This document shows, one piece after another, positions 19,528 to 21,852 of a stretch of 24,637 nt of DNA. Numbering within the stretch: the stretch's first letter is position 1; each line of letters opens with the position of its first letter. The position numbers were made by a program, and so were the translations under genes. The DNA is from an uncultured archaeon (lineage in GTDB: Archaea > Asgardarchaeota > Lokiarchaeia > Sigyniarchaeales > SOKP01), in NCBI GenBank assembly GCA_964525635.1, contig CAZGJX010000067.1:1-24637 (forward strand), read 5' to 3'. Below the pieces are notes generated by a model. The model was not told where the DNA came from, searched no databases, and was given only the letters and a program-made list of their open reading frames with translations.

Positions 19528-21852
19528 TTAAGTACCTCCTTTCGTTTGATTTATATAGGTTTGATAATATTGAGTTAATATGGACAAAAACGATGGTATA
19601 CCTTGCCATTTCTGTACAGATAGAGTATCATAAGTTGGTTTTAGATATGGTTTGTACATTTCAAAAAACGCTTTAAAATCGCTAGAATTAACGATCCGTA
19701 ATAATTCTATACTTACAGCCTCAATGGAATCTAATTCTAAACTTACCTTTTCTATCTCTTTTCGAACCAAACCAGACTTATCTTTAAATACATTTTGTTT
19801 GCGCTTAAGTAATTGTATATAGTCATAGATTTTTTCACAAAAACCATCAAAATCGTCGGGTGTAAATTCATGCCCAAGTTCCCTACTCAATCCTATTGTA
19901 GCTAGATCAACCCACCCAATATTAGTACCTTTCAGCGGTATTACGTCTATACCTCGCTCCTTGCCCAGATTGAGTACTTTTAAACTTTCTGTAGAACTTA
20001 CCGATCCTCCGGTTGCTAAAAATATAATTAAATCTATTGAGTCTAAGTTTTCCTCGTCCTCTGGAAGAACTCCATATACTTCGCTTTGTTTTTCGAGGTA
20101 TTCGATTAATTCTGGAAGACGATGAGCCTTAGCATCTTCTTCGCTAGCAATCATCATGATTGCGATTGAAGCACGTTGTCTGCAATAGTCTTTAATTGTT
20201 TCGGCATCGCTTTCGACGACTTCTAACTCTTCGGGAGAGAGAAGATTATTTTTTAGGTCTAATTTATCCAAAGATTCCAATGCCCATATAAAATAAGGTA
20301 GTTCTGATAGTTTATTATCTGATACTGAAAGTTGGGTTAAATTAAGCCTAAGAATATCCTCAGACAATTCTTCTAACTGATTTCCATTTAAAAATAAATT
20401 CACTAAGGAAACCAAATCCCATAAATCGTCAGGTAAATCACTTAATTCGTTATTCATGAGATAGAGATATTTTAAATCTTTTAATTGGGCGATTCCTTCG
20501 GGAATTATACCAATTGGATTGAATGAAAAGTCTAACATAATAAGCTTTTGACATTTAAAAAGAGAGGTAGGAATGGTTGAAATCTTGTTTGACCTCACAT
20601 GTAATTGTAATAAATTCTGAAGGTTTCCTATATCTTCTGGTAATTCTGTTAAATTATTTCCAGTGATCTCTATCTCTTCCAATTTCACTAGTTTAGAGAA
20701 TCCTCTTGGGAGTTTTTTCAATTTATTTTCACTCAATTTAAGGATTCTTAATTTTGTTAAATTATCAAAATTTTCTGGGAGCTCGAGAAGCTCATTCCCT
20801 CTATCAATTATTAGTTCTTCTAAATCCTTAAGGTTTCCAAAATTGTCAGGTAGCGTTTCTATTTTGTTGTTTTCCAGATTAAGATATCTCAATTTTTCCA
20901 AATTCCCAATACACTCTGGCAGATTAACAATATTTCTCCAGCCCACGTATAGCGCGATTACTCTGTGCTCATCACATGCATAACCAAAATGACTCAAGTG
21001 TGGTATTTTTTTCGCCCAATTATCATCTTGAGTTGTTTCTGCCGCTTGTCGGACCATTTGTTGCTGAACAACGTGCTGTTTGAGCATGTTTTGAATGTTT
21101 TGATAGGCTTGTTGTGCGGTCTGCATAGCGATAGTTTCAGCTGCATTTTCGTCCATTCCAATTAACGGCTTTAATTTTGCCATTATTGGATCCGATTGGC
21201 CCACTGTGTTTAAACCTAAGCTAATTACTTCTTTTAAAAGAGATTGATAATCGGGTTTAGTAATCGTATTATAATACTCATTACTAGCTTTTTTTAGATC
21301 TTCCAGAGTCGAACTTTCCGAGTACATCGATTTTATTAATTTATGATACTCTTCTTTATTTAAAATCCTTATTTTAAAATATCTATAATAGAATTGAGCC
21401 GCTAACTTAGCTTTAGTTTTCGCTTTTTCTTCGTCCATGTCCAATAAATCCCTGAATTGTTTTATTGTAGGGTGATTTTCTCCTAATGCAGGAAGCATCA
21501 TATTTAATTGAGCCTCTATTTGACTTTTGTACGCTGGAGTAGTGGTCTGGAGGAATGAGGTAGAATACATATTTTCCAATTGTTCGATCGACATTTTTTC
21601 TTGTTGATCTAATTGTGATTCAGTAGCCATTATACCTTGGTATTGAGCTTGGAGCGGCGATATTGTCATTGCTGCTCTTTGAGCAGTCATTTGCTGTTGC
21701 CGTTGAATAGCCATTTTTTCCATTTTCTCCCTTGTCGCGTCCCGATTTTCGGCACAGGGAATCTCTTCTTTGAGCATTTGCTCCAATTTTTTCATACAAT
21801 CGGCTTCAGATTCAACTAAATACACATCATGATATTTCTTAAGTGAACTCAT
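19528..21852 (-). CDS. LRR-pseudoTIR protein (about 11 LRRs) with a large Gln/Met/Ala-rich helical insertion near the N-terminus
   Basis: LRRs span aa about 296-540. The C-terminal domain aligns with the neighbour's TIR (RASIAI/RASMAI; LPELIEYLEKQSEVY/LPKLGEYLEKKPEVY; IGLSRELG/IGLSKDPG) but has STESLKVL in place of SPDCAHEL. Confidence 0.88.
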   Translation of the reverse strand: MSSLKKYHDVYLVESEADCMKKLEQMLKEEIPCAENRDATREKMEKMAIQRQQQMTAQRAAMTISPLQAQYQGIMATESQLDQQEKMSIEQLENMYSTSFLQTTTPAYKSQIEAQLNMMLPALGENHPTIKQFRDLLDMDEEKAKTKAKLAAQFYYRYFKIRILNKEEYHKLIKSMYSESSTLEDLKKASNEYYNTITKPDYQSLLKEVISLGLNTVGQSDPIMAKLKPLIGMDENAAETIAMQTAQQAYQNIQNMLKQHVVQQQMVRQAAETTQDDNWAKKIPHLSHFGYACDEHRVIALYVGWRNIVNLPECIGNLEKLRYLNLENNKIETLPDNFGNLKDLEELIIDRGNELLELPENFDNLTKLRILKLSENKLKKLPRGFSKLVKLEEIEITGNNLTELPEDIGNLQNLLQLHVRSNKISTIPTSLFKCQKLIMLDFSFNPIGIIPEGIAQLKDLKYLYLMNNELSDLPDDLWDLVSLVNLFLNGNQLEELSEDILRLNLTQLSVSDNKLSELPYFIWALESLDKLDLKNNLLSPEELEVVESDAETIKDYCRQRASIAIMMIASEEDAKAHRLPELIEYLEKQSEVYGVLPEDEENLDSIDLIIFLATGGSVSSTESLKVLNLGKERGIDVIPLKGTNIGWVDLATIGLSRELGHEFTPDDFDGFCEKIYDYIQLLKRKQNVFKDKSGLVRKEIEKVSLELDSIEAVSIELLRIVNSSDFKAFFEMYKPYLKPTYDTLSVQKWQGIPSFLSILTQYYQTYINQTKGGT
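19534..19540 (-). promoter_or_regulatory. Shine-Dalgarno AGGAGGT for the downstream LRR-TIR gene, embedded in the last codons of the upstream gene
   Basis: The minus strand reads AAAGGAGGTACTTAAGTATG: SD, upstream TAA, 2 nt, ATG. Spacing from SD to ATG is 8 nt. Confidence 0.8.

What the first reader, a model, noticed from the sequence alone, without database searches (positions are those of the whole stretch)
20995..21755. Roughly 255-aa 'integrated domain' with an internal duplication inserted inside the LRR N-cap of the pseudo-TIR protein
In the paralogue the N-cap is contiguous (EEVEVLREFERIIG...FALDESQNSVNKIWL). Here the same two halves (ESEADCMKKLEQMLKEEIP and FGYACDEHRVIALYV) are separated by aa about 33-287. 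The insert is Gln/Met/Ala-rich and helical. It holds two copies, about 94 aa apart, of one unit: TTTPAYKSQIEAQLNMMLPALGENHPTIKQFRDLLDMDEEKAKTKAKLAAQFYY and TITKPDYQSLLKEVISLGLNTVGQSDPIMAKLKPLIGMDENAAETIAMQTAQQAY. An extra domain found only in the catalytically dead partner parallels the integrated decoy domains of plant sensor NLRs such as RRS1-WRKY and RGA5-HMA (inference).
Basis: partly seen in the sequence, partly recalled or inferred. Interest (0 to 1): 0.8.

Follow-up and report, generated by a model that had tools for sequence, protein, structure and literature searches.

The report
Helical domain splitting an LRR cap
In an Asgard-type archaeon, the enzymatically dead member of a conserved pair of LRR-TIR-like proteins carries a 255-residue helical domain of no known family, wedged inside the cap of its leucine-rich-repeat domain. 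The domain is real and conserved, but nothing shows it to be a plant-style "decoy", and its function is unknown.

Summary

- **The gene.** Window 19528-21852 (-) encodes a 774-aa LRR protein ("A") with a degenerate TIR-like domain. A paralogue ("B") with intact TIR motifs starts 2 nt after its stop.
- **The split cap.** In A, aa 1-33 and aa 289-302 match the two halves of contiguous N-caps in other LRR proteins of this genome. Those halves lie about 10-13 aa apart there and 255 aa apart here.
- **The insert (20989-21753).** It is all-helical and Q/M/A-rich. It holds two copies of a 79-aa four-helix unit (hhalign E 1.5e-17) that come from one old duplication. AlphaFold2 models it at pLDDT 88, and fold alignments imply that aa 13-33 cap the LRR.
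- **No relatives.** No homologue was found outside this protein family in 1.84 billion representatives, in this genome or in viral sets. No fold match was found.
- **Distribution.** All 15 of 161 class genomes with an A-type protein carry this same insert and a B gene downstream. One genus has a single unit.

It is therefore a family-defining accessory domain, not a swappable integrated decoy. Its role, probably a binding or regulatory surface, is inferred only.

The scan noted the same insert on another genome (e1-5591018) and the gene pair on several.

The parts
19528..21852 (-). Gene A (P0001, 774 aa): split N-cap, helical insert, LRR, pseudo-TIR-like domain and helical tail
   Evidence: ORF and translation. 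Pfam finds only LRR families, at aa ~293-540. Eleven or more orthologues share the same architecture.
21754..21852 (-). N-cap first half, aa 1-33: beta-hairpin, helix, and the 'IPC' strand
   Evidence: AF2 gives strands 4-7 and 10-13, helix 14-27 and strand 33-36, with pLDDT 85-95. BLASTP links it to the contiguous N-cap of the C191 LRR protein. Fold alignments to N-cap-plus-LRR structures start at model residues 13-16.
20989..21753 (-). The insert, aa 34-288 (255 aa): all-helical and Q/M/A-rich
   Evidence: Boundaries come from the orthologue alignment. The profile match covers 20989-21750. The AF2 insert-only model has pLDDT 88.4, pTM 0.72 and ten helices.
21601..21753 (-). Gln/Ala/Met-rich leading helices, aa 34-84
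   Evidence: Q 22%, A 16%, M 10%. Helices 37-61 and 66-85, with pLDDT falling to 63 at aa 51-60. Length varies between orthologues.
21364..21600 (-). Unit 1, aa 85-163 (four helices; motifs TP.YK.Q, GENHP, MDE..A)
   Evidence: The unit profile scores E 6e-35 and matches 21367-21600. Invariant residues are E90, P106, Q115, G124, E125, H127, D140 and A144. Mean pairwise identity among orthologues is 44%.
21319..21363 (-). Linker between units, aa 164-178 (the end of unit 1's long helix)
   Evidence: AF2 helix 141-176. Mean identity is 22%.
21082..21318 (-). Unit 2, aa 179-257: a diverged copy of unit 1
   Evidence: The unit profile scores E 7e-31 and matches 21082-21315. Unit 1 against unit 2 by hhalign gives E 1.5e-17. 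Mean identity is 33%.
20989..21081 (-). Gln-rich returning helix and loop, aa 258-288
   Evidence: Part of helix 235-272, with pLDDT falling to 55 at aa 271-280. Q 19%. This is the least conserved region, at 19% identity.
20218..20988 (-). N-cap second half ('FGY...RVIAL' strands, aa 289-302) and the LRR solenoid, to aa 545
   Evidence: AF2 strands 290-294 and 297-302 are followed by the LRR pattern. Pfam LRR_8, LRR_14 and LRR_4. BLASTP aligns aa 278-310 with the N-cap of P0002.
19753..20217 (-). Pseudo-TIR-like domain, aa 546-700
   Evidence: The A/B family alignment shows that every A member lacks the 'SH' motif, has an 11-aa deletion where B has the 'CEQDLSGNID' loop, and has a hydrophobic residue where B has the Glu of 'CAHE'. 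This is the most conserved region of A, at 60% identity.
17045..19525 (-). Gene B (P0002 from Met29): LRR plus TIR-like domain with intact motifs and a contiguous N-cap
   Evidence: Its ATG lies 2 nt after the stop of A, with GGAGGT 8 nt upstream. Translation. A B-type gene follows A in all 15 genomes.

Best explanation
**What it is.**
- Aa 34-288 of gene A form a lineage-specific, all-helical accessory domain.
- It sits in the short loop of the LRR N-cap. That loop normally spans about 10-13 residues and joins the cap helix / 'IP' strand to the 'FG[FY]' strands.
- The domain consists of Gln/Met/Ala-rich connecting helices and two tandem copies of a 79-residue four-helix unit.
- The two copies arose from one ancient duplication. 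One genus now has a single unit, most likely by loss.
- The domain defines the non-catalytic (pseudo-TIR) member of a strictly conserved two-gene LRR-TIR-like cassette. The cassette is patchily distributed in Loki-type Asgard archaea.

**How it most likely works (inferred, not shown).**
- Protein A is the regulatory or sensing subunit of an A-B complex.
- The insert adds a second protein-binding or regulatory surface at the N-terminal end of A's LRR horseshoe.
- Unit 1, the better conserved copy, carries the functional site, and the Q-rich helices act as flexible arms.
- Engagement of the LRR and insert would be relayed through the conserved pseudo-TIR to B's TIR.

It is an integrated accessory domain, but not a decoy copied from another protein.
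For: **Shown here.**
- *Split cap.* The flanks are homologous to contiguous caps. AF2 models aa 1-36 confidently (pLDDT 85-95) within the 1-370 model.
- *Fold alignments of the cap.* Alignments to contiguous N-cap-plus-LRR structures span model residues 13..370 but align only 102-110 residues. Examples are the C. tepidum Roco protein 8r4b_A residues 3-112 (Z 11.1, rmsd 2.4) and plant LRR ectodomains. LRR-only matches align 74-85 residues. About 20-25 residues of the N-terminal segment therefore occupy the cap position.
- *Duplication.*. In a unit tree, the unit-1 and unit-2 copies fall on opposite sides of one branch (support 97/90), so there was a single duplication.
- *Unit number.* Two units in nine full-length members, one unit in P0009 and G008. 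In the pseudo-TIR tree rooted with B, the one-unit protein is nested among two-unit ones (98/97), which points to loss.
- *Family-defining.* A-type pseudo-TIR hits (E <= 1e-94) occur in exactly the 15 of 161 genomes that have the insert. Each has one copy and a B-type gene downstream.
- *Selection.* Unit 1 is as conserved as the LRR (44% against 46% identity). The pseudo-TIR is the most conserved region at 60%.
- *No source protein.*.

**Inferred.** The binding or regulatory role and the relay to B's TIR.
Against: - No function, ligand, interaction or expression has been shown.
- The models rest on an alignment of only 8 sequences. I could not inspect coordinates, so the cap contact is read indirectly from secondary structure, pLDDT and alignment ranges.
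- pTM of the 1-370 model is only 0.54, so the position of the insert relative to the LRR is unknown.
- The C-terminal domains are called TIR-like from motifs and a language-model lead only (score 0.89). Pfam, PADLOC and PDB sequence searches found no TIR.
- A purely structural or oligomerising role fits the same data.
Confidence: 0.55

Rival explanations
1. Integrated decoy. The insert mimics a host or viral protein targeted by an invader's effector, as the WRKY domain of RRS1 or the HMA domain of RGA5 does. Its modification or binding releases the TIR partner.
For: The extra domain occurs only in the motif-dead partner of a strictly linked pair. The cassette is patchily distributed, as accessory or defence genes are: 15 of 161 genomes, and 1 of 4 in its own genus.
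Against: - No stand-alone homologue turned up in an exhaustive HMMER search of 1.84 billion representatives.
- None turned up in profile searches of the 5.8-billion set at stand-alone or longer lengths, in this genome or in viral sets.
- All orthologues carry the same domain.
- A recurring 65-aa ORF in related genomes that weakly resembled the unit failed profile comparison, at probability 25%.
Confidence: 0.08
2. Oligomerisation or autoinhibition module. The long helices mediate A-A or A-B association, or cover a surface, setting the stoichiometry or keeping the B TIR silent. They have no ligand of their own.
For: The domain is built entirely of helices, some 36-47 residues long, with Q-rich flanks. 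The nearest, non-significant, structural neighbours are elongated bundles such as BAR domains and spectrin repeats. TIR enzymes generally act through assembly (established knowledge).
Against: The conserved non-heptad motifs (TP.YK.Q, GENHP, MDE..A) and the compact four-helix units, with insert-only pTM 0.72, point to a folded domain rather than a simple coiled coil. Nothing tested here addresses binding.
Confidence: 0.25
3. Neutral filler or spacer. This is a tolerated expansion of a surface loop by low-complexity Q/M/A sequence, with no specific function.
For: Composition is biased. The flanking helices vary in length and are poorly conserved, at 19-37% identity. One unit can be lost.
Against: Unit 1 is as conserved as the LRR, with eight invariant residues across families of the order. 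The frame is intact in all 15 genomes. The AF2 prediction is confident despite a shallow alignment.
Confidence: 0.08
4. Diverged TPR module. Each unit descends from a kinesin-light-chain-type pair of TPR motifs (Pfam TPR_10/TPR_12) and binds peptides as TPRs do.
For: The unit profile hits kinesin light chain TPR domains in the PDB sequence set, with a whole-sequence E of 1.8e-6. That score is the sum of four hits of about 7 bits to the 'lG.dHP.va' helix-turn-helix junction. TPR_12/TPR_10 clusters are among the nearest Atlas shapes, at TM 0.25-0.31. The unit has four helices in 79 aa, as the 77-position TPR_12 model does.
Against: - The match covers only about 23 residues.
- Pfam TPR models do not hit the insert even at E 10.
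- hhalign against this genome's own TPR_12 repeats gives probability 0.5%.
- Structural alignment to KLC2 TPR gives only Z 3.7.
Confidence: 0.1

Closest known systems
Integrated domains of paired plant NLR sensors (RRS1-WRKY with RPS4; RGA5-HMA with RGA4)
   Same: There are two linked paralogous receptor genes. The extra domain is present only in the partner whose signalling domain is non-functional, and the dead domain is nevertheless conserved.
   Different: - There is no NB-ARC/STAND module.
- The insert has no homologue among stand-alone proteins.
- It is the same in all orthologues.
- It sits inside the LRR N-cap rather than at a terminus or between domains.
- The host is an archaeon and the genes are translationally coupled.
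Island domains of plant LRR receptor kinases (e.g. BRI1, PSKR1)
   Same: A folded extra domain is spliced into an LRR domain without breaking the solenoid. In the plant proteins it adds a ligand-binding surface (established knowledge).
   Different: The plant islands are about 40-70 residues long, lie between late repeats and are extracellular. This insert is 255 residues, all-helical, internally duplicated, cytoplasmic and located in the N-cap loop. No sequence or fold similarity was found.
Contiguous N-caps of prokaryotic LRR proteins (Roco-type, e.g. Chlorobium tepidum Roco, PDB 8r4b)
   Same: Both have the helix plus strands that cap the first repeat. In the model, aa 16-33 together with 286-370 align to 8r4b_A residues 3-112 at Z 11.1 and rmsd 2.4. 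The N-terminal segment also matches contiguous caps of this genome by sequence.
   Different: Those caps are continuous, about 10-13 aa between the two halves in this genome. Here the halves are 255 aa apart.
Kinesin-light-chain-type TPR repeats (Pfam TPR_10/TPR_12)
   Same: They share a local helix / 'G..HP' turn / helix motif.
   Different: There is no Pfam match, no profile-profile match to this genome's own TPR_12 repeats, and only weak structural similarity.

Membership tests
Integrated decoy/domain of a paired NLR sensor (RRS1/RGA5 type) | Genetically linked sensor and executor genes | tested here: met
   A and B are adjacent on the same strand in 15 of 15 genomes. In the window the gap is 2 nt.
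Integrated decoy/domain of a paired NLR sensor (RRS1/RGA5 type) | NB-ARC/STAND NTPase core in both partners | tested here: not met
   Pfam, NCBIfam and PADLOC scans of both proteins report only LRR families.
Integrated decoy/domain of a paired NLR sensor (RRS1/RGA5 type) | The integrated domain is homologous to a stand-alone host protein (the effector target) | tested here: not met
   No such homologue was found in 1.84 billion representatives, in the 5.8-billion set or in this genome.
Integrated decoy/domain of a paired NLR sensor (RRS1/RGA5 type) | Different integrated domains in related sensors (modular exchange) | tested here: not met
   All 15 A-type proteins carry the same unit. Only the copy number, 1 or 2, varies.
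Integrated decoy/domain of a paired NLR sensor (RRS1/RGA5 type) | Binding or modification by a pathogen effector triggers the partner | not testable with these tools
   This needs bench work.
LRR N-terminal cap (prokaryotic, Roco-like type) | An N-terminal helix and strands pack on the first repeat, and the sequence pattern is shared with contiguous caps | tested here: met
   BLASTP to the C191 cap, best E 3e-5. AF2 secondary structure and pLDDT. Fold alignments include residues 13-33. The contact itself is inferred, because coordinates were not inspected.
TPR (KLC type; Pfam TPR_10/TPR_12) | Match to the Pfam TPR models at or near the curated cut-off | tested here: not met
   No TPR family appears at E <= 10 for any of 8 inserts. 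A genome-wide PF13424 scan lists 136 matches, none in this gene.
TPR (KLC type; Pfam TPR_10/TPR_12) | Helix-turn-helix repeats with TPR packing | tested here: inconclusive
   The local motif hits KLC sequences. The structural Z to KLC2 is only 3.7, and hhalign to this genome's TPR_12 repeats gives probability 0.5%.
TIR domain (context: C-terminal domains of A and B) | Match to TIR profiles or structures, and the catalytic Glu in a 'C..E' helix | tested here: inconclusive
   There is no Pfam, PADLOC or PDB sequence match. Language-model features place B among TIR_2 clusters at 0.89, which is a lead only. B keeps 'SH..D', a 'D..G.I' loop and 'CAHE'; A lacks all three.

The most novel reading that the evidence does not exclude
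The insert is a true integrated sensor domain. It would be a new fold, on the non-catalytic subunit of an archaeal LRR-TIR pair, that directly recognises a viral or mobile-element factor, or a host state, and so licenses the partner's TIR. That would be an independent archaeal invention of the 'sensor with integrated domain plus executor' logic of plant paired NLRs, built without any NTPase switch.
Probability: 0.15. Interest if true: 0.85.

Novelty: new variant of a known kind. Interest (0 to 1): 0.5.

Why it matters
Paired receptors in which an inactive partner carries an extra domain are so far a hallmark of plant immunity. Here a comparable layout appears in Asgard archaea, the closest prokaryotic relatives of eukaryotes. 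It is built from LRR and TIR-like parts only, and the extra domain is threaded through the LRR cap.

The insert is a domain with no detectable relatives or fold match. It is conserved, duplicated and confined to one protein family. That makes it the obvious handle for finding out what this two-gene cassette senses, using deletion, bait and structure experiments.

It also shows that an LRR N-cap loop can host a large folded domain, which is useful for annotation and for receptor engineering.

Tried and rejected
- **Stand-alone homologue.** Four related genomes have a conserved 65-aa ORF that weakly hit aa 114-175 (E about 0.05). Profile-profile comparison gave only probability 25%, so I rejected it.
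- **Origin from the protein's own C-terminal tail.** The unit profile gave recurrent hits of E 0.3-8 in the tail. hhalign of the unit against the C-terminal domain gave probability 0.2%. Rejected.
- **TPR origin.** See the rival explanation: a local motif only.
- **Known fold.** Nothing scored above helical background.
  - Foldseek on PDB: best E 0.35, TM <= 0.25.
  - VIA-align over 48,161 chains: best Z 6.4.
  - VIA second look at Foldseek's top matches: best Z 5.5.
  - ESM Atlas by shape: TM <= 0.31.
  - ESM Atlas by features: no usable hit.
  - BFVD viral models: best E 0.077.
- **Pfam on eight inserts.** No shared family.
- **Viral contigs.** A single-sequence scan found no relative.
- **Homodimer of the insert.** Complex prediction with two copies returned 'no answer' (score 0.00, controls not run), after four failed attempts to reach the machine. 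This is evidence neither for nor against binding.
- **TIR identity by sequence.** Negative with Pfam, PADLOC, PDB phmmer and PDB profile search.
- **Literature.** A search on Asgard, TIR and LRR found only general reviews. The assembly accessions were not found in any paper.
- **RNA.** Rfam found no RNA family in the window.
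Full report
**Setting**

The window has 22-34% G+C. It lies on contig C67 of a 4.45-Mb genome in 245 contigs, 26.8% G+C and 100% complete by marker genes. The genome encodes eukaryote-type actins: Pfam Actin scores 443 bits, E 9e-133. That fits an Asgard archaeon. Earlier notes of this scan call related genomes Promethearchaeota (Loki type); I did not check the name itself.

On the minus strand, ORF 19528-21852 encodes 774 aa (P0001, 'A'). It is followed by ORF 17045-19609 (P0002, 'B'). 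B most likely starts at the ATG at 19525-19523, which lies 2 nt after A's TAA stop and 8 nt downstream of a GGAGGT.

Pfam sees only LRR families in both proteins. BLASTP aligns A and B over the LRR and about 200 C-terminal residues at 34% identity, E 2e-61.

The finding's coordinates correspond to aa 33-286 of A.

*Split cap.*
- Other LRR proteins of the same genome have a contiguous N-cap. It is a helix with an 'E..L..LE....IP' pattern, about 10-13 residues, then 'FGF/IGY', a second short strand and the first repeat. Examples are on contigs C191 and C2.
- In A the 'IP' motif is at aa 31-32 and 'FGY' at aa 289-291, so 256 residues separate them.
- The first 42 residues of A-family members match the C191 cap by BLASTP against the genome's 28 LRR ORFs. 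Six of ten members score E <= 0.007; the best is 3e-5 with 52% identity over 29 aa.
- Aa 278-310 of A align with the second half of B's cap.

*Composition and structure.* Relative to the rest of the protein, the intervening sequence is enriched 3.8x in Met, 3.7x in Gln and 3.3x in Ala. It is predicted to be entirely helical.

*Duplication.*
- BLASTP of aa 85-157 against aa 179-251 gives 27% identity over 73 ungapped residues, offset 94 aa, E 1e-8.
- Profiles of unit 1 and unit 2 built from orthologues align with probability 98.9%, E 1.5e-17 over 75 columns.

**Relatives**

- An exhaustive HMMER search of 1.84 billion representative proteins with aa 1-300 found eight proteins, counting the query itself. 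All are the same kind of roughly 790-aa LRR protein or fragments of it.
- A unit-profile search of the 5.8-billion set found only this family among longer proteins. It found nothing at stand-alone size, 42-139 aa.
- The unit has no other copy in this genome: the next best hit has E 0.67.
- In 161 genomes of the class, the insert profile matches 15, once each. These are 11 of 54 in one genus, 2 of 6 in another, 1 of 2 in a genus of a second family, and this genome alone among the four searched of its genus, itself included.
- A profile of A's C-terminal domain gives a sharply bimodal result. The same 15 genomes score E <= 1e-94 and everything else scores E >= 1e-43. In each of the 15, a second, B-type hit lies about 2.4 kb downstream on the same strand.
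- I read three such neighbours directly. All have contiguous caps and intact B motifs.
- A and B families are reciprocally monophyletic with 100/100 support.

The insert is therefore co-extensive with the A family. Orthologous pairs do not carry different inserts.

**Anatomy and history of the insert**

- Insert length is 255, 253, 275, 256 and 198 aa in two-unit proteins, and 122-133 aa in the one-unit proteins of one genus.
- In a unit tree, first and second units separate on one branch (97/90). The single units group with the first units.
- In the pseudo-TIR tree rooted with B, the one-unit protein is nested among two-unit ones (98/97). Loss of a unit is the simpler history.
- Conserved features of unit 1 are TP.YK.Q, GENHP and MDE..A. 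Invariant residues are E90, P106, Q115, G124, E125, H127, D140 and A144. C33 and R37 at the entry to the insert are also invariant.
- Mean pairwise identity among ten orthologues, by region:

| Region | Identity |
|---|---|
| Pseudo-TIR | 60% |
| Cap helix | 47% |
| LRR | 46% |
| Unit 1 | 44% |
| Q-rich leader | 37% |
| Unit 2 | 33% |
| Returning helix | 19% |

**Structure prediction**

- With only eight aligned sequences, AlphaFold2 gave pLDDT 88.9 for aa 1-370. The elements are strands 4-7 and 10-13, helix 14-27, strand 33-36, helices through 272, strands 290-294 and 297-302, then LRR. pTM was 0.54.
- For the insert alone it gave pLDDT 88.4 and pTM 0.72, with ten helices. Each unit is four helices, the last 36-47 residues long. 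Confidence falls in the Q-rich connectors.
- I could not read coordinates. An all-against-48,161-chain structural alignment of the 1-370 model gives indirect evidence. The best matches are contiguous N-cap-plus-LRR structures: plant LRR ectodomains and the C. tepidum Roco protein 8r4b_A residues 3-112 (Z 11.1, rmsd 2.4). They span model residues 13..370 yet align only 102-110 residues. LRR-only matches align 74-85 residues.
- So about 20-25 residues of the N-terminal segment occupy the cap position.

**What the insert resembles**

Nothing convincing was found. Fold searches of the insert-only model gave:
- Foldseek on PDB: best E 0.35.
- VIA-align, wide search: best Z 6.4.
- VIA-align, second look: best Z 5.5.
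- ESM Atlas by shape: TM <= 0.31.
- ESM Atlas by features: no usable hit.
- BFVD viral models: best E 0.077.

All of these are within the background expected for helical models. Pfam finds no family shared by the eight inserts.

One lead remains. The unit profile hits kinesin-light-chain TPR domains with a whole-sequence E of 1.8e-6, made of four hits of about 7 bits to the 'lG.dHP.va' junction. Against it:
- Pfam TPR_12 does not touch this gene, although it finds 136 repeats elsewhere in the genome.
- hhalign against those repeats gives probability 0.5%.
- The structural Z to KLC2 is 3.7.

I treat it as a shared helix-capping motif, not as shown ancestry.

**The pseudo-TIR context**

An alignment of 4 B and 11 A sequences shows the following:
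- B keeps 'F[IV]SHA..D', a 'CEQDL.GNID' loop and 'DCAHE'.
- Every A lacks 'SH', has an 11-residue deletion in that loop, and has V, L, I or M in place of the Glu.

By established knowledge of TIR NADases, these are the beta-A motif, the BB-loop and the catalytic Glu.

Sequence searches did not confirm a TIR fold. A language-model feature search put B among TIR_2 clusters at 0.89, which is a lead only.

**Interpretation**

Well supported:
- A real, conserved, internally duplicated helical domain is spliced into the N-cap loop.
- It defines the motif-dead partner of a strictly conserved, patchily distributed two-gene cassette.

Inferred:
- It provides an additional binding or regulatory surface on a sensor-like subunit.

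The plant-style decoy reading fails three of its defining features, each tested here: there is no NTPase core, no stand-alone homologue and no exchange of domains between orthologues. A scaffold or oligomerisation role remains a serious rival. The one complex prediction I could run gave no answer.

**Earlier notes of the scan**

- The pair on this window (e1-5621090, e1-5621091) agrees with what I tested.
- The same pair was followed up on other genomes (e1-5562398 and others).

Noticed in passing
G000 contig C163, about 4170-6030 (+) (not in the window): An 898-aa open frame has TPR_12 repeats at 4172-5188, followed by a TIR-like domain match at 5615-6031 at E 1.4e-9 with two in-frame stops. 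This looks like a TPR-TIR-like protein, possibly broken.
   Followed up: no
G000 contig C3, about 20190-53010 (+) (not in the window): At least ten neighbouring ORFs of about 735 aa carry TPR_12 repeats, forming a large tandem paralogue array.
   Followed up: no
G000 contig C39, 953-aa ORF (not in the window): This LRR protein has a GTPase-like N-terminal part. Its N-cap has a spacer of about 35 aa between the cap helix and the 'FGI' strand, which is intermediate between the usual 10-13 aa and the 255 aa here.
   Followed up: no
G000 contigs C87, C16, C54, C68 (loci L011-L014): Four further LRR proteins have B-type TIR-like domains, at 37-41% identity to P0002's and with the 'SHA..D' and 'C..E' motifs intact. 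They have no A-type partner detected by the insert profile.
   Followed up: partly
L006-L009 (related genomes G025, G038, G036, G032): A highly conserved 65-aa ORF (80-86% identity) lies between a CxxCxxCC-motif gene and a subtilase-like gene. Its weak likeness to the unit was not supported.
   Followed up: partly
L023 1495-3424 (assembly GCA_019058425.1): NadA (quinolinate synthase) and an isochorismatase-family gene lie 2.5-4.5 kb upstream of the A-B pair. These are NAD-metabolism genes near a putative NAD-cleaving TIR, which may be coincidence.
   Followed up: no
L003 / G035 contig C20: This genome has B-type genes on both sides of its A gene. One is divergent upstream (3658-4374, -) and one is co-directional downstream (9581-10315, +).
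   Followed up: partly
window 22098-23633 (+): A histidine kinase with an N-terminal VUPS (vitamin-uptake-like sensor) membrane domain (Pfam E 2.5e-26) lies divergent from gene A, across a 245-bp AT-rich spacer.
   Followed up: no
window 13191-15458 (-) and 8381-12907 (-): A 755-aa protein has repeated extracellular 'WGNDTEIMY'-type blades, membrane segments and two C-terminal winged-helix domains (HVO_0163-type HTH and HTH_24). It lies upstream of a 1508-aa dockerin-bearing protein.
   Followed up: no
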